This document shows positions 8,049 through 62,926 of a DNA stretch of 63,937 nt, in pieces. Numbering within the stretch: position 1 is the stretch's first letter; each line of letters starts with the position of its first letter. A model generated the notes under the pieces. It was not told the DNA's origin and searched no databases. It worked only from the letters and a program-made list of their open reading frames with translations. This stretch comes from Chloroflexota bacterium (GTDB taxonomy: Bacteria; Chloroflexota; Anaerolineae; Anaerolineales; UBA4823), in contig JAQBDA010000231.1 of NCBI GenBank assembly GCA_032124675.1, forward strand, positions 1 through 63,937. Direction: 5' to 3'. The position numbers and the translations under genes were made by a program.

Positions 8049-9608
8049 ATGCCCGATTCGATCGCCATCCTGGATTTCGGATCGCAGTATGGGCAGCTCA
8101 TCGCCCGTCGAGTGCGAGAAGCGGAAGTATACAGCGAGCTCTTCCCATGGGACGCACCTGCCAGCCAGGTGATGGCTCTGAGCCCGAAGGGTTTCATCCT
8201 CTCAGGCGGACCGGCGTCCGTCTACGAACCCGGCGCTCCGTACATCCCAGCCTACGTGCTGGATAGCGGCCTGCCGATACTCGGCATCTGCTACGGCATG
8301 CAGGCGATCACCCAGGCGCTAGGGGGGCGGGTCGCGCCTGCCGCAGAACGCGAGTACGGACCCGCCCATCTGGAGACCCTGCCCGCCAACCCACTGCTCA
8401 CGCCGGGCAGTCAGCGGGTATGGATGTCGCATGGTGACCGCATCGAGGTCGTTCCGCCCGGGTTCATCCCCCTGGCACAAAGTGATAACTCACCAATCGC
8501 GGCCATCGGCGACCTGCAGCGCCGGTACTACGGTTTGCAGTTCCACCCCGAAGTCCACCACACACCTGGCGGGTCAGAAATCCTGCGCCGCTATGTGGTT
8601 GATATCTGCCAGGCAATCCCTGGCTGGACGCCTGATTCGATCATCACAGAGAGCGTGGAGCGCGTGCGGAGGCAGGTTGGTAAAGATATGGTCATAGCGG
8701 CGGTCAGCGGGGGCGTGGACTCCAGCGTGGCAACCGCCATGGTGCAGCGCGCAGTGGGTGAGCAGCTTGTCGCAGTATTTGTAGATACCGGACTCCTGCG
8801 CCAGGGAGAAGTAGCCCAGGTACGCAAAGCGCTGCACGAAAACCTGGAGGTCGAGTTGGTTGTGGTGGATGCCGTTGGCGCCTTCATATCCGCCCTGAGC
8901 GGGGTGACCGACCCTGAGAGCAAGCGCCGTATTATCGGGGAACTGTTCATCCGCACTTTCGAGGCGCAAGCCAGACAGTTCGGAGAGCCGCGTTTCCTGG
9001 TGCAGGGCACGATCTACCCGGACGTGGTCGAATCCAGCGCACCCGACCGGGCGAAAGTGCACCGTATCAAGACCCACCACAATGTGGGTGGGCTGCCGGA
9101 AGAGATGCAGTTCGAGCTGGTCGAGCCGCTGCGCTATTTATTCAAGGATGAGGTACGGGGCGTGGGTGAGGCGCTGGGCTTACCCGCCAGCCTGGTGTGG
9201 CGCCAGCCGTTCCCCGGTCCGGGACTGGCCGTGCGCTGCCTGGGAGATGTGACCCAGGTGCGTCTGGATAGGCTGCGAGCAGCGGATGCTATTCTTACCA
9301 CTGAGCTTGCCTCCGCCGGGCTGCTGCGCATGGGTCACGAGGGTGACCGGCTTAGTGGTACGGCACAGGCCTTTGCAGTGCTGCTGCCTGTACGCTCGGT
9401 GGGTGTGATGGGCGATCAGCGCACTTACCAGGAAGCGGTCGTCTTGCGTGCCGTTACCACCGAAGACTTCATGACCGCCGATTGGGCGCGCCTGCCTCAC
9501 GATCTGCTGGCACGCATTGCCAACCGCATCGTCAATGAAGTGCCAGGAGTCAACCGGGTGGTCTATGATATCACCAGCAAGCCGCCCGGTACCATCGAGT
9601 GGGAATAA
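8049..9608 (+). CDS. guaA: GMP synthase (glutamine-hydrolysing)
   Basis: [36 protein letters not shown]-terminal KPPGTIEWE. Confidence 0.97.
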
Positions 9609-9628
9609 GCCCGAGTTTAGGACGAAAT

Positions 9629-11251
9629 TTACTCCCTTGCCCAATCCCAGACCCAATACAGCACAGCAGTGGCGACCCCCAAGCCGAGAGTCTTGAACAG
9701 ATCCACTACCTCCCAGGGCAGGTAAGTATATCGGCGCAGGTACCAGGGCAGGAACCAGGCCAGTATCAGAACCGAGCTGACCAGCGCCCGCCGCAGCCAG
9801 GGGTCATGCCGGGCTCTCTGGGCTGCCAGCACCCAGGCTGCCAGTGCCACCTGCAAGCCGGCAAATGCTTCCCTGTAGCGCGGGTTATCCCACTGGTCTC
9901 CGCCACCCCGGTAAGAGGCAATCAGAATACCCAGCCACACGACCAGGCTGATCCCCAGGACCAGACGGATATTCCCGGTGCCATCCTGGCTTCCGGCATC
10001 CACCCGTCGCATGGCGCGCAGCGGTGCGTAGATCAGGAAAACCAGCAGCAGCGTCCACCCGGCTGCACGCCAGATGGCAATCGCCCTCCAGATCAGGGCT
10101 CCGGTCGCATCGCTCAGCGCGGCTGGCAGGAATGGCTGGACGATCCCGTAAACCAGCAGCATGGGAGCATGTGCCCATTCCGGGGTACTGTCGAAGATCT
10201 TCTGCACCCAGCCTGAGGCGCGCTCGCTGAGGTAGGCCTGCCAATCGGCGGACTTCTTCACCCACCAGCCCACCAGCTCGACCGGATTTGACACTCCCTG
10301 CGGTGCGAAGCTGCCCCATGTGAACCACAGCCCGGCGAGGACCAATACTGCCAGCAGGGCCAATATCACCCACACCCGGCGCTGCCCCCTGAGCCCTCCC
10401 AGGAGAACGCCTGGACCTGCAGCTGCCGCCAGGATGACAAGCATCAACAGCAGCAGTCCAGCGAACGGTGGAGAGAAAGGCAGGCACAGCAGCAGTGCAG
10501 CAATGACCCAAAACAGGCTGCTCCACGAGCGTTCCTGCAGGTATTGCAAAAGGCCGTAAAACGCGGCTGCTGACAGGGTTATAGTAAAGGCTTCGCGCAT
10601 CTGTGAGCTTCCAATCAGCACCGCTTCGGGGTAGAAGACCAGCAGCCAGGCAGCGATGGCAGCCGCCTCGGCATTCCAGGCGCGCCTGGCAAACGCCCAG
10701 GTGAATAAGATTGCCAGAGATGAAAATGCGGCAGTCAGCGTGATGATCAGCAGGGGTGGGTGTGCCTCGCCCGGCAGGAAGCGGTACACAGCCGCACTCA
10801 TGAACAGCAGACCGCCGTACTGGTCATAGCGCCGGTAGCCGCCCTGAAAGGCTTTCAACAATGATTTCTCAGATTGAGAGAGGTCCCAGGCGCTACGATC
10901 CCGGTCATAGGCATCCGACATCACGTAGCCGTTCAGTTCTGCGGGAGAGCCATACCCCCAGACCGGCAGCCCAGTATGCCAGATGACTCCTATCCCCAGA
11001 CGCAGCAGGGCCGCTGCGATCAGCAATCCACCCAGCCAGCCTGGAGGAGTCTCTCTGCGCACCAACCACCATCCCACCCACAGCATTCCAGCACCCGCTG
11101 CCAGGACTGCCAGGAAAGGGAACCAGCCGGTGACGCTCATGTAACCGCTCGAGACCCAGGCCAGGCCAAATGCCAGCCCGGTCAACACAGCCAAGCAGGC
11201 TGCCAACAAGACCACCTTCGGTATGGGCTGCCTGTCCACTGGCTGACTCAC
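9629..11251 (-). CDS. Polytopic membrane protein, GT-C-like glycosyltransferase or polymerase candidate
   Basis: Many hydrophobic segments, a large loop with SDAYDRD, ArnT/PMT-like YP...S..MRE segment; lies within the glycan locus; GTGA-coupled to the upstream GT4. Confidence 0.55.
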   Translation of the reverse strand: MSQPVDRQPIPKVVLLAACLAVLTGLAFGLAWVSSGYMSVTGWFPFLAVLAAGAGMLWVGWWLVRRETPPGWLGGLLIAAALLRLGIGVIWHTGLPVWGYGSPAELNGYVMSDAYDRDRSAWDLSQSEKSLLKAFQGGYRRYDQYGGLLFMSAAVYRFLPGEAHPPLLIITLTAAFSSLAILFTWAFARRAWNAEAAAIAAWLLVFYPEAVLIGSSQMREAFTITLSAAAFYGLLQYLQERSWSSLFWVIAALLLCLPFSPPFAGLLLLMLVILAAAAGPGVLLGGLRGQRRVWVILALLAVLVLAGLWFTWGSFAPQGVSNPVELVGWWVKKSADWQAYLSERASGWVQKIFDSTPEWAHAPMLLVYGIVQPFLPAALSDATGALIWRAIAIWRAAGWTLLLVFLIYAPLRAMRRVDAGSQDGTGNIRLVLGISLVVWLGILIASYRGGGDQWDNPRYREAFAGLQVALAAWVLAAQRARHDPWLRRALVSSVLILAWFLPWYLRRYTYLPWEVVDLFKTLGLGVATAVLYWVWDWARE

Positions 11252-12414
11252 AGCATAATCCCTTCCAGTATCCGTTGAGCTCGAGATTCCCAGCTGTAAC
11301 GGTCGGCGTTCATCCGTGCCTCTCTGCCGAGGTCAGCTCGACGTTGGGCATCTTCGCTCAACCCTTGGATTGCTGTCACCCATGAGTTTGCATCATCCGG
11401 CGGCAGGAAGATGGCGAAATCCTGCTCCAGCACCTCCTTCAGAACCGGCAAATCGCTTGAGAGGATGGGCCGACCGCTCGCCATATACTCGAAGAGCTTC
11501 ATCGGGCTCAGGTAGCGGGCAATATCCCCGCCGGAAGAGGCAGCCACATGCCGCTGGTAGGGCATCAGCAGCACATCGCAGGCAGCCTGATAGACCGGCA
11601 GCTCCGCATTGGGAATAAAACCGGTCAGTATGACATTGCTCAGGCCTGCTTGCTGTGATTGCAACTGTAGTCGTTCGACATCTTGAGGCTCGCCACCAAC
11701 CAGCAAGAAGATCGCTTCCGGCAGGCCGGCAGCCATTGCGAGCATCAATTCCACCCCGCGGCCTCGATAGAGGTGCCCCGTATAACCAGCCACTATGACC
11801 TGGTCGCTCAGGCTAACTCCCAGCCCTTCCTCAATCGAACGCCGCGCCGCGTCCCTTCCCGGCAGATTGGTATAGCGTGATAAATCCACCCCATCCGGGG
11901 CAACAAGGCTGAACGGCTCATCAACGGGTGCGCTGAACTTATCTGCCAGGTCATAGAGCAGGCTGTGTGTGATCACTACCAGGCGCCGCTTCCCACGACC
12001 GCGCAGGAAAGCCCGGAACAGGAGCGGAGCCATTAATCCCTTGGGCAGATCGTGAACTTCATATATTGTGGGCACCCCCAGCATGCTGCCTATGGCAGCC
12101 GCCTGGGGCAGACGGGTGTAGAGCAGGTCAGCGTTCCAGCCGCGCGCCCAACCTACCGAGCGGAAGCCAAAATCATAGCGCCTAAGCTGCGGAATGGCAG
12201 TCAGCCAATCCACTGTAAACCGCTGCTTCAGCCCGTAGTGGTGAGCCAGCTCGCCCCATTGAGTCTCATCGACCGATCTGGCAGCACCCGCGGCGGGCAC
12301 AGCCAGACGCACCTCATGACCCAGTGCGGAGATCGCCTGGCACATCTTCATCACCTGCATGGTATTGGCACGCCGGGCCGGGATCTCACTGGGAGCGATA
12401 ACGGCAACGCGCAT
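11248..12414 (-). CDS. Glycosyltransferase family 4
   Basis: GT-B motifs (YTGHL..GRGV, SPMKLFEYMASGRPILSSD). Start moved from 12645 to the ATG at 12414, 2 nt after the flippase stop. Confidence 0.9.
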   Translation of the reverse strand: MRVAVIAPSEIPARRANTMQVMKMCQAISALGHEVRLAVPAAGAARSVDETQWGELAHHYGLKQRFTVDWLTAIPQLRRYDFGFRSVGWARGWNADLLYTRLPQAAAIGSMLGVPTIYEVHDLPKGLMAPLLFRAFLRGRGKRRLVVITHSLLYDLADKFSAPVDEPFSLVAPDGVDLSRYTNLPGRDAARRSIEEGLGVSLSDQVIVAGYTGHLYRGRGVELMLAMAAGLPEAIFLLVGGEPQDVERLQLQSQQAGLSNVILTGFIPNAELPVYQAACDVLLMPYQRHVAASSGGDIARYLSPMKLFEYMASGRPILSSDLPVLKEVLEQDFAIFLPPDDANSWVTAIQGLSEDAQRRADLGREARMNADRYSWESRAQRILEGIML

Positions 12415-59643: not shown

Positions 59644-60204
59644 TTACTCTACAAGATGGGCGGCGGCATCGCGTGAATGGACTACCTTCCCATACGTGCC
59701 ATCCAACGCTGCCAGAAATGACCGGTGGACAAAATCCGCAGTAACCTGCTGCCCCTCAAACTGGAGGTCCCGTGTTGCACAGGCGTCCCCGGCGATAAGA
59801 CATTCGAAACCCAGATCATTAGCTGCGCGTACAGTGGCATCGACACACATATGGGTCATCATACCGCAGACCAGCAGCCGGGCAACCTGGCTGCCGTGCA
59901 GGTGCTCCAGCAAATGGGTTTCCCGGAAGCTATTCGGGAAGTGTTTTTGGATCACGGTTTCGCTTTCCCGCGGTTGTATCGATGGGTGAACCTCAACCCC
60001 CGGCGTTCCCGGTTGGAAGAAAGCTGCTCCAACCTGGGTGGCGATGTGCTGGACAAAGACCACCGGCTGTTGGGTCTGCCGGAAATAATCCAGGAGATAT
60101 CCGGCTTGCTGGCTGGCTTCAAGGCTACCGACAAGTTCCATTTTCCCGCCCGGAAAATAGTCGTTCTGGATATCAACCAGCAAGAGTGCGGTTTTCTTCG
60201 TCAT
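59644..60204 (-). CDS. Cysteine hydrolase (isochorismatase family)
   Basis: ALLLVDIQNDYF, KHFPNSF, GMMTHMCVDAT. Start likely 60204. Confidence 0.9.
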   Translation of the reverse strand: MTKKTALLLVDIQNDYFPGGKMELVGSLEASQQAGYLLDYFRQTQQPVVFVQHIATQVGAAFFQPGTPGVEVHPSIQPRESETVIQKHFPNSFRETHLLEHLHGSQVARLLVCGMMTHMCVDATVRAANDLGFECLIAGDACATRDLQFEGQQVTADFVHRSFLAALDGTYGKVVHSRDAAAHLVE

Positions 60205-60361
60205 CGAGCACCTTTCAATTACGGGATATCGATTGACACCGTTCAAGCAGGATCAATCGCTGATTTAAGGTTAGCGTTATAATCTTACCATCCATTCAGT
60301 GGACACTATACCCTGCTCTCGTTTCCGGCCCACCCAGCCAATACTGCTACGGATATGACCC

Positions 60362-61585
60362 ATGATCACCCCAGAAAAAATCGACGAATGGATCAAAGAA
60401 GCCGCAGAGCGACCTGAATCTGCGTCCATGATCATCCAGCACCTCGCAAAGCGGCTGCGCTATCTGGCGCAGCGCAATGAAGAACTGCACAATGAGAACA
60501 TCGCCCTGATGTCCGGTGAACGGGTTGAGGAGTACGAACGCCGTATCACTCATCTGGAATACCAGCTCGACCTTCTTAAGCGCAGGCTCAGCGCTGAGAT
60601 AACGCTGCCGGATGCCGCAGGTGATCCTTATCAAATCGAAGCTTCCCGGCCAACCAAAACCAGCAGCATACTGGTGTATGACCATCTAGGTCATATCCTC
60701 CGCCTCCCGGTCAACCTGGAGGAGATGGAAAGCGGCGCTATGCTATCCTACATCCAGACCGATATTGCCCGCAGGCAGGAGCCACCCGGGATGCTGGCTC
60801 TGCTTTCGTCCGATGAGCTGCTGCTGGTGTTCAATTCTGGGCGGGTCGCGGCGCTTCCTGTGGAGGAGATAGCCGCCTCCCCGGCAGGCGGACAGCTAAC
60901 CCTGGACCAGGCACCCATCCCGGATGAGCCGCGCGGTATCGAACGTCTGGCATGCCTGGTGCCGATTGCCAGGCTGCCCCTGATCGATTCGATTATTCAG
61001 GTCAGCCGCAAGGCTTATGCCAAGAAAATTGGGTCCTCGATGATCGAAACGATCCTGGCAAACCAGTATATCGGTTCCGGGGTAAATTTACCTGCCGACC
61101 AGACTTTAAATGTCATCCTGTGTGGAAACGCGGACCAGCTTATCCTGGTCAGCCGAATGGGATATCTCTTACGCATCGAAGCCCGGCATGTATCACATTC
61201 TATCGAGGCTGCGATGCGCTTAGGAAAAACCGATCACCTCGTCTCGGGGTTCCTGATCTATCCTCAACAATCGGTTCTGGTAGCTACACAAACCGGGAAG
61301 CTGATCCATCGTGCGGAGGACAGCTTCGAGGTCAGCACTACTGCCCACACCAAAGGCTTGCCCGTGGTTTCAAAATCCCGCCGTGAGCAGGGCGTGCGGG
61401 TTGTCGGCGCGGCGGCGGTCAGCGAGGATGACTGGGGTGCTGCTCTGCATAAGGATGGGACGATCACACTGCACTCTATGACAGACTTATTTGCCAGCGG
61501 GACGATCCCTGTGGATAGCGAACTGCTGGTATTCACCCGCCTGCCGCTCCCCAGGGCTGAGGTGCGTACCACCGGTGAGGGCTGA
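60362..61585 (+). CDS. Coiled coil plus stand-alone gyrase/topo IV C-terminal beta-pinwheel-like repeats
   Basis: Six repeats of about 50 aa with a hydrophobic strand followed by a Gly turn (SILVYDHLG, ELLLVFNSG, SIIQVSRKA, QLILVSRMG, SVLVATQTG, WGAALHKDG); no topoisomerase catalytic core. Confidence 0.7.
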   Translation: MITPEKIDEWIKEAAERPESASMIIQHLAKRLRYLAQRNEELHNENIALMSGERVEEYERRITHLEYQLDLLKRRLSAEITLPDAAGDPYQIEASRPTKTSSILVYDHLGHILRLPVNLEEMESGAMLSYIQTDIARRQEPPGMLALLSSDELLLVFNSGRVAALPVEEIAASPAGGQLTLDQAPIPDEPRGIERLACLVPIARLPLIDSIIQVSRKAYAKKIGSSMIETILANQYIGSGVNLPADQTLNVILCGNADQLILVSRMGYLLRIEARHVSHSIEAAMRLGKTDHLVSGFLIYPQQSVLVATQTGKLIHRAEDSFEVSTTAHTKGLPVVSKSRREQGVRVVGAAAVSEDDWGAALHKDGTITLHSMTDLFASGTIPVDSELLVFTRLPLPRAEVRTTGEG

Positions 61586-62926
61586 GTGGGATTGAATATC
61601 GGCCTGGACTTCGGTACATCCAATTCCGGCGTGGCGGTCAGCGATGGCGAACGGGTGAAGCTGCTCGCCATCGACCAGCAGAATATGCTGCCCGAGGTGG
61701 TGAAATCCATCCTGTATATCGATCGCAGCCACCGCTGCACCATCGGGCAGGAAGCCATCGAGTTGTACTACCGGCATAACGTCAACCGCCTGCGCCGCTA
61801 CGTGAAGAAGCGGGCAGGCGAGCTGGATTTTCGCGGCGCTGAGATGTACTACGTGCGAGATGTCTATGTTTACGTGGACGAGCTCAAGCCGGGACGGCTG
61901 CTGCAGTACCTGAAAACCACGCTGCGTGAGCCCAGTGGACCCAACGGCTATGCGGGCACGCAGGTCTTCGATCGCTATTACGAAGTGACCGACTTGATCG
62001 GAGCCTATCTGCAGGAGCTGAGGAAACGCGCCGAAACGCTGCTGGGGGAACCGGTCAGTGGGGCAACCCTTGGCAGACCAGTGAAATTTTCAGACGACCC
62101 GCTGGCAGACCGTCATGCGGAAGAGACGCTGCGCCAGGCTGCGCTCCAGGCAGGGTTTACACGGGTGGATTTCGAGCTTGAACCGGTGGCAGCAGCACTG
62201 TACTACGAGAAGACGCTGGATCGTCCGCAGAATGCCCTAATCTTCGACTTCGGCGGTGGCACGCTGGATATCGCCATCATGCACCTGGGGGACCCTGCAG
62301 GACGTCGCGTCTACGCCAGCGGCGGGATCGGCATCGCCGGCAGCGACTTCGACCGGACGATCATCCAGAAGCGCCTGCTGACCCACTTTGGCCAAGGAGA
62401 GGTGCACCACCAGCCAGAACTCCTTGATCTGATCCAGGCTGTGCCAGATTGGGTTGCCCTGCCTGAAATGAGCACACCTCTCACCCGCCAAAACCTGGAG
62501 ACCGCCATCCAGAACGGCATCGCCCCAGCCAGGCTAAGCGCATTGATAGCATTGATATTCAACGACCTGGCGTTCTCATTCTACAACCAGGTCGAAGCAG
62601 CTAAAATCGCCCTATCGGAGCGTGGAACAGCAGTCATCAAGCTGCAGAACCAGGGTATCGATCTTTGGGAGCTGTACACACGGGCTCAGTTCGAGGCGGA
62701 TATCTACGAGCAGCGGGTGGAAATTCAGAAAGTGCTGCTGGAGACAGTAGCCGCTTCCGGGCTGGAACCAGACCAGATCACAGCAGTTGTCCGGACCGGT
62801 GGGTCGTCCAATATCCCGGTGTTCAGTGCCATGCTGGGTGAAATCTTCGGTCCCGAGCGGGTGATTGCATCGAACACATTCAGCAGCGTGGTCTCCGGGC
62901 TGGCGATCCGCGCTGGCAGCAGATAA
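61586..62926 (+). CDS. Hsp70-family ATPase lacking the substrate-binding domain (YegD-like)
   Basis: GLDFGTSNS, EPVAAA, DFGGGTLD, GSDFDR, TGGSSNIP; ends after the NBD. Confidence 0.88.
   Translation: MGLNIGLDFGTSNSGVAVSDGERVKLLAIDQQNMLPEVVKSILYIDRSHRCTIGQEAIELYYRHNVNRLRRYVKKRAGELDFRGAEMYYVRDVYVYVDELKPGRLLQYLKTTLREPSGPNGYAGTQVFDRYYEVTDLIGAYLQELRKRAETLLGEPVSGATLGRPVKFSDDPLADRHAEETLRQAALQAGFTRVDFELEPVAAALYYEKTLDRPQNALIFDFGGGTLDIAIMHLGDPAGRRVYASGGIGIAGSDFDRTIIQKRLLTHFGQGEVHHQPELLDLIQAVPDWVALPEMSTPLTRQNLETAIQNGIAPARLSALIALIFNDLAFSFYNQVEAAKIALSERGTAVIKLQNQGIDLWELYTRAQFEADIYEQRVEIQKVLLETVAASGLEPDQITAVVRTGGSSNIPVFSAMLGEIFGPERVIASNTFSSVVSGLAIRAGSR

What the first reader, a model, noticed from the sequence alone, without database searches (positions are those of the whole stretch)
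60362..61585. Stand-alone gyrase-type beta-pinwheel with a coiled-coil head
Seen: about 75 aa of heptad-like helix (LRYLAQRNEELHNENIAL...ITHLEYQLDLLKRR), a linker, then six repeats matching the GyrA/ParC C-terminal blade pattern. There is no breakage-reunion domain or recognisable GyrA box. Established: this domain binds and bends DNA and is normally fused to a type IIA topoisomerase. Inference: an oligomeric DNA-wrapping nucleoid protein, or a trans-acting accessory or inhibitor of gyrase/topo IV. Basic patches in blades 3 and 5 (SRKAYAKK, SKSRR) fit DNA binding.
Basis: partly seen in the sequence, partly recalled or inferred. Interest (0 to 1): 0.72.

Follow-up and report, generated by a model that had tools for sequence, protein, structure and literature searches.

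The report
Gyrase-type pinwheel paired with truncated Hsp70
A protein built from a leucine-zipper-like head and a much-diverged copy of the DNA-wrapping domain of gyrase is always encoded together with an Hsp70 ATPase that lacks its client-binding half, which points to an undescribed two-protein ATP-driven machine in filamentous sediment bacteria (Anaerolineae) and not to a spare part of gyrase.

Summary
ORF 60362-61585 (407 aa) has a helical heptad head of about 78 aa, a 20-aa variable linker and a six-bladed beta domain. AlphaFold and Foldseek place that domain only with GyrA/ParC C-terminal beta-pinwheels (top 20 PDB hits, E down to 1.8e-17; ordinary propellers E>=0.2). Sequence similarity is weak but real (PDB 1wp5 E=6e-8). 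There is no GyrA box and no breakage-reunion domain, and the genome keeps two full-length GyrA-type proteins with their own CTDs.

The gene is translationally coupled to a YegD-like, NBD-only Hsp70 ATPase (61586-62926). The ATPase gene starts within 300 nt in 79 of 80 related loci and lies about 1.1 kb downstream in the 80th. The two genes are present together in 11 and absent together in the other 30 of 41 related genomes. A natural NBD-pinwheel fusion exists in another genus.

The pinwheel is net acidic (-7, against +6 for the genome's own GyrA CTD). It keeps only 5 of 19 conserved basic GyrA-CTD columns and evolves about twice as fast as its partner, while the head is the most conserved part.

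My best reading is an accessory, lineage-restricted split Hsp70-like machine in which the pinwheel acts as the client-binding module. Full DNA wrapping is unlikely, and the ligand is unknown.

The parts
60278..60283 (+). TATAAT -10-like hexamer, 78 nt upstream of the start codon. It is the candidate promoter of the two-gene operon.
   Evidence: Read from the sequence. A perfect or near-perfect (G)TATAAT lies upstream of the start codon in most related loci, usually 25-32 nt and sometimes 50-108 nt. The generic two-hexamer scan did not call it, so no convincing -35 was found.
60362..60595 (+). Head, residues 1-78: a short helix (4-16), the invariant R17-P18-x-S20 turn, then two heptad segments (18-51 and 53-79) with Asn at two 'a' positions. 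It looks like a leucine zipper.
   Evidence: AF2 helices. Heptad core and invariant surface residues across 75 homologues. Mean pairwise identity is 70%, the highest of any region. The head profile finds only 156 proteins in 1.84 billion representatives; the full-length ones are 350-446 aa and the distant ones inspected pair the head with a repeat-rich C-terminal part.
60596..60658 (+). Variable, acidic, disordered linker, residues 79-99.
   Evidence: pLDDT below 50 for residues 79-97. Pairwise identity is 15% and the length varies. Mean net charge is -2.5.
60659..61546 (+). Six-bladed GyrA/ParC-CTD-type beta-pinwheel, residues 100-395. It has no GyrA box and is net acidic, with a conserved basic cluster in blade 3 (R216, K217, K221, K222) and blades 5-6 (K313, K331, R340, R341, R346).
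   Evidence: AF2 and Foldseek. Sequence matches. Charge and conserved basic columns.
61547..61585 (+). Disordered C-terminal tail (residues 396-407) and TGA stop at 61583-61585. The stop abuts the start codon of the next gene.
   Evidence: pLDDT below 50 for residues 399-407. Sequence ...GGTGAGGGCTGAGTG.... In 27 of 61 related loci the two genes overlap by ATGA or GTGA.
61586..62926 (+). Partner gene: a YegD-like, NBD-only Hsp70 ATPase of 446 aa with all nucleotide-binding motifs intact and no substrate-binding domain.
   Evidence: Pfam HSP70 E=3.9e-24. NCBIfam NF008673 E=3.2e-48 over residues 5-443 of the protein and 3-445 of 450 in the profile, but 164.7 bits against a cut-off of 331. Foldseek on the read-through model gives DnaK/BiP NBDs, target-normalised TM up to 0.81. 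Motifs DFGTSNS, K110, E199-P, DFGGGTLD and TGGSS-IP are invariant or nearly so in 61 partners. Adjacency and co-occurrence.

Best explanation
Genes 60362-61585 and 61586-62926 form one accessory two-gene module found in Anaerolineae (Chloroflexota).

Gene 1 is an ancient, strongly diverged duplicate of the DNA-wrapping C-terminal domain of a type IIA topoisomerase A subunit. It has gained a leucine-zipper-like head. Gene 2 is an Hsp70 nucleotide-binding domain with no client-binding domain (YegD type).

Proposed working:
- The two proteins are made together from a translationally coupled operon and form a complex.
- The head dimerises as a parallel zipper, and its invariant surface docks the ATPase.
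- The two flexibly tethered pinwheels take the place of the missing Hsp70 substrate-binding domain as the ligand-facing module.
- ATP binding and hydrolysis in the NBD gate binding and release, or the assembly state, of the pinwheels.
- The ligand is most likely bound locally at the conserved basic cluster in blades 3 and 5-6. It could be a short stretch of nucleic acid or an acidic partner. It is not wrapped around the rim as in gyrase.

Shown here: the fold, the loss of gyrase-specific features, operon coupling, co-inheritance, intact ATPase motifs, and a natural NBD-pinwheel fusion.
Inferred: physical complex, head-ATPase docking, dimerisation, the ATP-gated mechanism, and the ligand.
For: Fold and origin.

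Coupling of the two genes:
- The Hsp70-like ORF starts within -14 to +300 nt in 79 of 80 species-level loci; the 80th has it 1.1 kb downstream.
- ATGA or GTGA overlap in 27 of 61 loci; the window has TGA immediately followed by GTG.
- Distant subfamilies, including an Aggregatilineales one, are also followed by a 442-452-aa Hsp70.
- No other neighbour is conserved.
- Among 41 related genomes the same 11 carry both genes, 29 carry neither, and the 41st (G435) has no pinwheel gene and only the 36%-identical YegD-like fusion.
- Identity to the window falls in the same order for GyrA, the ATPase and the pinwheel, which fits vertical descent with joint loss.

Fusion evidence: in genus g249 a 766-aa protein joins a YegD-like NBD to a C-terminal domain homologous to a bona fide GyrA-box CTD paralogue (hhalign prob 94%, E=1.2e-7, 255 columns; blastp E=3.7e-9). 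The order NBD then pinwheel mirrors Hsp70's NBD then SBD.

ATPase competence: motifs are invariant in 61 of 61 partners, and the fold is an Hsp70 NBD, not MreB or ParM.

Head as docking or oligomerisation element:
- Pairwise identity is 70% for the head against 47% for the pinwheel and 15% for the linker.
- Many exposed polar residues are invariant.
- Among the full-length hits, the head occurs only in proteins of 350-446 aa like this one, out of 1.84 billion representatives.

Against a gyrase-like wrap.

Expression: an estuary metatranscriptome contig (98-99% identical) spans the gene junction at 61266-61771.
Against: - No direct evidence of a complex. A read-through single-chain AF2 model built with a partly paired 106-row alignment gave pTM 0.54, and the head pLDDT fell from 81-88 to 66-80, so no confident docking was found.
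- One distant homologue (L091) has no adjacent Hsp70.
- The head profile matches nothing in the PDB (best E=0.04, coiled-coil noise), so no known Hsp70 cofactor fold is indicated.
- Pinwheel charge varies across subfamilies from -13 to +5, so charge does not settle the ligand.
- At 19% identity the alignment to GyrA CTD may be off by 1-3 residues, so the 5-of-19 count is a lower bound.
- The metatranscriptome contigs also cover the divergent upstream gene, so DNA carry-over is possible.
Confidence: 0.5

Rival explanations
1. One reading: a self-sufficient oligomeric DNA-wrapping or DNA-bending nucleoid protein, a Gac-like stand-alone CTD made bivalent by the coiled coil. On this view the neighbouring ATPase is incidental or only a folding helper.
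For: - The fold descends from a DNA-wrapping domain.
- A conserved basic cluster remains in blades 3 and 5-6.
- Stand-alone GyrA CTDs that bind DNA exist: Borrelia Gac (PMC10127594).
- The operon has a strong constitutive-looking -10 element.
Against: - Net charge is -7, and the family mean is -4.3 against +5.2 for relatives' GyrA CTDs.
- 14 of 19 conserved basic columns are lost, there is no GyrA box, and blade 1 is the least conserved.
- The gene is patchy and strictly co-inherited with the ATPase.
- The pinwheel evolves about twice as fast as the GyrA CTD.
- The same genomes can carry a separate, basic, GyrA-box-bearing stand-alone CTD that fits a Gac-like role better.
Confidence: 0.13
2. 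The pinwheel protein is a cofactor of the YegD-like ATPase, for example a nucleotide-exchange or ATPase-activating factor. It would be loosely analogous to GrpE, which is a coiled-coil dimer plus a beta domain. The machine's real clients would then be bound elsewhere.
For: - Strict pairing and translational coupling.
- The head is the most conserved region, and the ATPase is conserved to match.
- The layout is a coiled coil plus a beta-rich domain.
Against: - No sequence similarity of the head to GrpE, BAG or J domains.
- A 300-aa six-bladed pinwheel is large for a pure exchange factor.
- The NBD-pinwheel fusion puts the pinwheel where Hsp70 has its client domain.
- The NBD alone has no client site.
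Confidence: 0.15
3. A conflict or defence module. An NBD-only Hsp70 acts with a fast-evolving sensor domain, as in the Hsp70-containing NTPase conflict systems described in multicellular prokaryotes.
For: - Patchy, accessory distribution.
- The pinwheel evolves about twice as fast as the ATPase.
- Hsp70 proteins lacking the peptide-binding domain have been noted in conflict systems of multicellular bacteria (PMC7159879).
- The hosts are filamentous Anaerolineae.
Against: - No PADLOC hit.
- The only PHROG hits are a weak topoisomerase II match and generic Hsp70-like families.
- No effector such as a nuclease or toxin is in the pair.
- Neighbours are housekeeping genes that differ between lineages, not defence islands.
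- Identity ranks follow GyrA, which fits vertical descent and not horizontal spread.
Confidence: 0.1
4. A trans-acting regulator or decoy of gyrase or topo IV. The free CTD-like domain would compete for DNA or for CTD-binding partners, with the ATPase controlling its availability.
For: Homology to the CTD. CTDs are known protein-interaction platforms, for example ParC CTD with MukB (PDB 4mn4, among the hits).
Against: - No linkage to gyrA, gyrB, parC or parE in any locus.
- Carriers and non-carriers have the same complement of full-length A subunits.
- The rim residues used by gyrase are mostly lost.
Confidence: 0.07

Closest known systems
GyrA/ParC C-terminal domain (beta-pinwheel, Pfam PF03989; structures 1wp5, 1suu, 1zi0, 3uc1)
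   Same: Six-bladed beta-pinwheel fold. It shares the blade sequence pattern (hydrophobic strand, G, K/R) and detectable homology.
   Different: - It is a separate gene with no breakage-reunion domain.
- It has no GyrA box.
- It is net acidic, with 14 of 19 conserved basic columns lost.
- It adds an N-terminal zipper head and a conserved helix (residues 225-234).
- It has an obligate Hsp70-NBD partner.
Borrelia burgdorferi Gac (GyrA CTD made as a separate DNA-binding protein; PMC10127594)
   Same: A GyrA-CTD-type domain that exists free of the topoisomerase core.
   Different: Gac is translated from an internal start inside gyrA, so it is identical to the enzyme's own CTD, and it binds DNA. 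The protein here is a distinct, highly diverged gene with a coiled-coil head and an ATPase partner, and its DNA binding is untested.
YegD-type NBD-only Hsp70 (E. coli YegD, NCBIfam NF008673; PMC13580251)
   Same: The partner aligns end to end with the YegD model (residues 5-443 of the protein against 3-445 of 450 in the profile). It has an Hsp70 NBD and no linker, basket or lid.
   Different: It scores below the equivalog cut-off (164.7 against 331 bits). E. coli yegD lies next to kinase and phosphatase genes and has no pinwheel partner (PMC13232886). No function is established for YegD.
Canonical Hsp70 (DnaK: NBD, linker, SBD)
   Same: The same ATPase fold and motifs. The rare NBD-pinwheel fusion has the same domain order as NBD-SBD.
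   Different: The peptide-clamping SBD is absent. A topoisomerase-derived pinwheel is supplied in trans here, or in cis in the fusion. No J-domain or GrpE gene is linked.

Membership tests
GyrA/ParC C-terminal beta-pinwheel superfamily | Six roughly 50-residue blades forming a beta-pinwheel, not a classical propeller | tested here: met
   AF2 pLDDT is above 90 over most of residues 101-394. The Foldseek top 20 are all GyrA/ParC CTDs (E 1.8e-17 to 2.9e-8), and ordinary propellers start at E=0.23.
GyrA/ParC C-terminal beta-pinwheel superfamily | Match to the Pfam repeat model PF03989 above its gathering score | tested here: not met
   The window protein has no hit at E<=1. Distant family members do pass, at 28.7, 33.8 and 41.7 bits against a cut-off of 27, so homology is bridged through relatives.
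DNA gyrase subunit A (TIGR01063) | Full-length match over the curated cut-off, including the breakage-reunion domain | tested here: not met
   28.1 bits against a cut-off of 877, and only CTD positions 540-771 align. The JGI label 'DNA gyrase/topoisomerase IV subunit A' on homologues is an over-annotation.
DNA gyrase subunit A (TIGR01063) | GyrA box (QRRGGKG-type) in blade 1 | tested here: not met
   Blade 1 (residues 100-141) has no such motif and is the least conserved blade at 32% identity. The genome's true GyrA has QARGGRG, and the other stand-alone paralogue has QKRGGMG.
DNA-wrapping CTD (functional class) | Basic outer rim that binds and bends DNA | tested here: inconclusive
   Net charge is -7 against +6 for the own GyrA CTD. 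The family mean is -4.3 against +5.2. Five of 19 conserved basic columns are kept and 7 family-specific basic positions appear in blades 5-6. Binding itself cannot be tested in silico.
Gac-like stand-alone CTD | Produced from an internal start within gyrA | tested here: not met
   It is an independent gene on another contig from gyrA (C231 against C95 and C165) with 19% identity to the CTD.
YegD (NF008673 equivalog), for the partner gene | Score over the curated cut-off | tested here: not met
   164.7 bits against 331, although the alignment is end to end. It is a YegD-like subfamily, not an equivalog.
Hsp70 NBD, for the partner gene | Phosphate-1, phosphate-2 and adenosine motifs and catalytic Lys/Glu, with no SBD | tested here: met
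   The motifs are invariant or nearly so across 61 partners. The protein is 446 aa and Foldseek aligns it to NBDs only.
Parallel dimeric coiled coil (leucine-zipper type), for the head | Heptad a/d hydrophobic core with buried Asn at 'a' positions | tested here: met
   Positions 28/32/35/N39/42/N46/49 and 55/58/62/65/69/72/76 are conserved in 75 sequences. The oligomeric state itself cannot be tested with these tools.
Known anti-phage defence systems (PADLOC) | Match to a defence-system protein model | tested here: not met
   The best E-values are 0.056 and 0.0039, on short stretches only.

The most novel reading that the evidence does not exclude
This could be a new class of split Hsp70-type machine. 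The peptide-clamping domain has been replaced by a topoisomerase-derived beta-pinwheel, supplied in trans through a zipper head, or in cis in one genus. That would make an ATP-gated, bivalent binder or remodeller of DNA or another polymer. It would also give the first functional logic for NBD-only (YegD-type) Hsp70s.
Probability: 0.3. Interest if true: 0.8.

Novelty: new variant of a known kind. Interest (0 to 1): 0.6.

Why it matters
- NBD-only Hsp70s of the YegD type are widespread and have no established function. An obligate, co-inherited partner, plus a natural fusion, gives a concrete and testable hypothesis for what such an ATPase acts through.
- It is a clear case of the gyrase DNA-wrapping domain being reused outside topoisomerases. 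The gyrase-specific features are lost and a new oligomerisation or docking head is gained.
- It corrects a recurring database label: homologues are called 'DNA gyrase/topoisomerase IV subunit A'.
- Anaerolineales turn out to carry at least three independent accessory CTD derivatives.

Tried and rejected
1. Complex prediction. The two window genes lie in one frame separated by a single TGA, so I folded the read-through (TGA read as Gly) with 15 naturally in-frame or fused homologues plus 90 unpaired rows. The result was pTM 0.54 with lower head confidence. This gives no evidence for a defined docking pose and I treat it as inconclusive.

2. Head against known cofactors. The head profile finds nothing in the PDB below E=0.04, and Pfam gives only coiled-coil noise.

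3. Defence system. PADLOC and PHROGs give no meaningful hits.

4. Stress regulon. No CIRCE, HAIR, LexA or sigma-32-type elements lie upstream in 73 loci; only a conserved -10 box and the ribosome-binding region are shared.

5. Single-ORF fusions in L047 and L058 as fusion evidence. Both come from Microflora Danica ('MFD') MAGs, which I believe (from my own knowledge, not from a tool result) are Nanopore assemblies, and the tail of L058 looks frameshifted, so I give them little weight.

6. Synteny test for a clean insertion or deletion in a same-genus non-carrier (G404). The flanking-gene homologues are only 58-59% identical and sit on different contigs, so this was uninformative.

7. RarA/MgsA as a third component. 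It is adjacent in L003 and L004 and near in L001, but a RarA-like ORF recurs in only 3 of the 80 loci, so I rejected it.

8. Literature searches for the pairing found nothing.
Full report
OBSERVATION

The ORF 60362..61585 (+, 407 aa) exists as described. AlphaFold2, run with a 66-sequence alignment of homologues (A1), gives mean pLDDT 85 and pTM 0.76. The model has helices 4-16, 18-51 and 53-79, a disordered stretch at 79-97, and an all-beta domain at 101-394 with pLDDT mostly above 90.

Foldseek against the PDB returns only GyrA/ParC C-terminal domains in the top 20: 1wp5 at E=1.8e-17, then 3uc1, 1zi0, and 1suu with target-normalised TM 0.74. The next hits are ordinary propellers at E>=0.23.

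Sequence evidence is weaker but significant:
- phmmer against PDB sequences: 1wp5 E=6e-8 and 1zi0 E=4e-4.
- NCBIfam gyrA: E=4.7e-7 for residues 144-376 against GyrA 540-771, at 28 bits against a cut-off of 877.
- hhalign of the family against 18 GyrA CTDs from the own genome and relatives: prob 93%, E=2.4e-7, 19% identity.
- Pfam PF03989 misses the window protein but passes its threshold in distant members of the same family.

Blade motifs start at residues 103, 153, 210, 260, 304 and 359. There is no GyrA box. The head has two heptad segments with conserved a/d positions and nearly invariant Asn at two 'a' positions (N39, N46). By established coiled-coil rules (my knowledge of GCN4-type zippers), buried Asn of this kind favours a parallel in-register dimer.

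CONTEXT

The stop codon TGA (61583-85) is followed immediately by GTG, the start of a 446-aa protein. That protein matches Hsp70 (Pfam E=3.9e-24). It aligns end to end with the YegD model NF008673 (E=3.2e-48), but below the equivalog cut-off.

In the read-through AF2 model this part superposes on DnaK and BiP nucleotide-binding domains, with target-normalised TM up to 0.81. All nucleotide-binding and catalytic motifs are invariant or nearly so across 61 partners. There is no substrate-binding domain. According to PMC13580251, YegD consists only of a DnaK-like NBD, and no function is established for it.

FAMILY AND LINKAGE

- More than 644 homologues of about 390-435 aa exist, and the named ones come from Anaerolineales MAGs. 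Many are mislabelled 'DNA gyrase/topoisomerase IV subunit A'.
- In the GTDB species collection, 149 loci encode a relative. The 80 best that were kept are all Chloroflexota, Anaerolineae or Anaerolineales MAGs.
- In 79 of those 80 loci the Hsp70-like gene starts within -14 to +300 nt of the end of the pinwheel gene. In the 80th it lies 1.1 kb downstream.
- 27 of 61 loci have an ATGA or GTGA overlap between the two genes.
- No other neighbour is conserved. Aromatic amino-acid genes recur in 8-15 loci, and a RarA-like ORF recurs in 3 of the 80.
- A head-only profile finds just 156 proteins among 1.84 billion representatives. The full-length ones are 350-446 aa, and the distant ones inspected pair the head with a repeat-rich C-terminal part.
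- These hits include distant subfamilies, one of them from Aggregatilineales. Two of these are also followed by a 442-452-aa Hsp70 and one is not.

PHYLETIC PATTERN

Among 41 related genomes the pinwheel gene is found in 11. The ATPase, at 65% identity or more, is found in exactly the same 11. Neither is found in 29, including high-quality same-genus and same-family genomes; the 41st (G435) has no pinwheel gene and carries only a 36%-identical YegD-like NBD fused to a pinwheel-like domain. An even sample of the phylum gave 2 of 401 with the head model. This is therefore an accessory, co-inherited pair.

Identity to the window falls in the same order for all three proteins, across G402 / G401 / G412 / G406 / G410:
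- GyrA: 94 / 82 / 74 / 73 / 73
- ATPase: about 87 / 77 / 72 / 73 / 65
- pinwheel protein: 77 / 53 / 48 / 47 / 43

This fits vertical descent with losses, and the pinwheel protein evolves about twice as fast as the others. Within the protein, pairwise identity is 70% for the head, 15% for the linker, 32% for blade 1 and 44-56% for the other blades.

IS IT A DNA WRAPPER OR A GYRASE PART?

The genome has a true GyrA with GyrA box QARGGRG, a second full-length A subunit with its own CTD, and a further stand-alone CTD paralogue. Carriers and non-carriers of the pair have the same complement of A subunits. The protein therefore does not replace a missing CTD.

Charge points away from wrapping. The window pinwheel has net charge -7 (pI 5.7) and the family mean is -4.3. 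The own GyrA CTD is +6, relatives' GyrA CTDs average +5.2 and the ParC-type CTDs of the own genome and relatives average +4. Of 19 columns that are conserved basic in GyrA CTDs, 5 stay basic in the family. Seven family-specific basic positions cluster in blades 5-6. The alignment could be off by 1-3 residues, so this count is a lower bound.

Other subfamilies range from -12 to +3, and the fusion pinwheels are +2 and +5. I conclude that a gyrase-like wrap is unlikely and that a local anion-binding site remains possible.

FUSION EVIDENCE

While checking the ATPase I found that one genus of another family in the same order (G435, G438, G439) encodes a 766-aa protein with a YegD-like NBD, 36% identical to the window partner over its full length. 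It is fused to a C-terminal domain of about 320 aa with six blade-like motifs at 37-54-aa spacing.

That domain is homologous to the GyrA-box-bearing stand-alone CTD paralogue: hhalign prob 94%, E=1.2e-7 over 255 columns, blastp E=3.7e-9, and a six-frame genome hit at E=3.6e-5. Its direct match to the family studied here is weak (E=0.015).

So an Hsp70 NBD and a GyrA-CTD-type pinwheel have been joined independently, in the order NBD then pinwheel, where Hsp70 has its client-binding domain.

EXPRESSION AND REGULATION

A perfect or near-perfect TATAAT lies upstream of the start in most loci (60278-60283 in the window). No CIRCE, HAIR, LexA or sigma-32 elements were found.

The sequence is held by marine, estuarine and other sediment metagenomes. 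Contigs from one estuary metatranscriptome, 98-99% identical, cover both genes, and one spans the junction at 61266-61771. DNA carry-over cannot be excluded.

MECHANISM

Shown here:
- The fold.
- Divergence from gyrase function.
- Operon coupling and co-inheritance.
- ATPase competence.
- An independent fusion of the two domain types.

Inferred:
- The two proteins form a complex.
- The zipper head dimerises, and its invariant surface docks the equally conserved ATPase.
- The pinwheels are the ligand-facing module, gated by the ATPase cycle.

The attempt to predict the complex as a read-through single chain did not give a confident arrangement: pTM 0.54, with head pLDDT lower than in the protein folded alone. 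Head-NBD docking therefore remains an inference from conservation.

The rivals are set out with their tests in the report sections:
- A Gac-like autonomous DNA binder.
- A GrpE-like cofactor of the ATPase.
- A defence module.
- A gyrase or topo IV regulator.

COMPARISON AND NOVELTY

The closest known things are the GyrA/ParC CTD itself, Borrelia Gac (PMC10127594), YegD (PMC13580251, PMC13232886) and canonical Hsp70. Hsp70 proteins without the peptide-binding domain have been noted in conflict systems of multicellular bacteria (PMC7159879), but not together with a pinwheel. Full-text searches found no description of this pairing.

Two earlier first-stage notes of this scan saw the same pairing, one on this stretch and one in another genome. 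They are not independent evidence.

I rate this a new variant of known kinds: known folds in an undescribed, conserved, co-inherited combination whose function is unknown.

Noticed in passing
L007:1282-2385 (own genome, contig C288, outside the window): A second stand-alone GyrA-CTD paralogue of 367 aa. It has a short N-terminal helix, a GyrA-box-like QKRGGMG, a PF03989 match at E=5e-16 and net charge +6. It fits a Gac-like DNA binder better than the protein in this finding does. It occurs in 14 of 41 related genomes, independently of the pinwheel/Hsp70 pair.
   Followed up: partly
L121:1884-4184 (G435 contig C295); also G438 and G439: A 766-aa natural fusion of a YegD-like Hsp70 NBD with a GyrA-CTD-type domain (hhalign prob 94% to the GyrA-box paralogue). 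Only two such proteins are present in the 5.8-billion-protein collection.
   Followed up: partly
L047:4995-7508 and L058:5001-7535: The pinwheel and Hsp70 genes read as one ORF of 840 and 844 aa. Both loci are from Microflora Danica ('MFD') MAGs, which I believe (own knowledge, not a tool result) are Nanopore assemblies, and the junction in L058 looks frameshifted. These may be assembly indels and not true fusions.
   Followed up: partly
L033:6170-7255: This is the only one of 80 loci where about 1.1 kb separates the pinwheel gene from the Hsp70-like gene. The content of the insert was not examined.
   Followed up: no
window 61586-62926, partner residues about 72-98: The Hsp70-like NBD carries a long two-stranded beta-hairpin insertion (strands 480-492 and 495-506 of the read-through model) in a region that is much shorter in DnaK. 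It may be a YegD-family feature and a possible interaction element.
   Followed up: no
L003 and L004 at 8556-9938; L001 at 11113-12282: A RarA/MgsA-type AAA+ gene lies directly after the pair in L003 and L004 and a few genes away in L001. A RarA-like ORF recurs in only 3 of the 80 species loci, so it is probably lineage synteny.
   Followed up: partly
window 60000-61039: The estuary metatranscriptome contig that covers the start of the pinwheel gene also runs across the divergent upstream isochorismatase-family gene. The cause is either DNA carry-over or antisense or read-through RNA.
   Followed up: no
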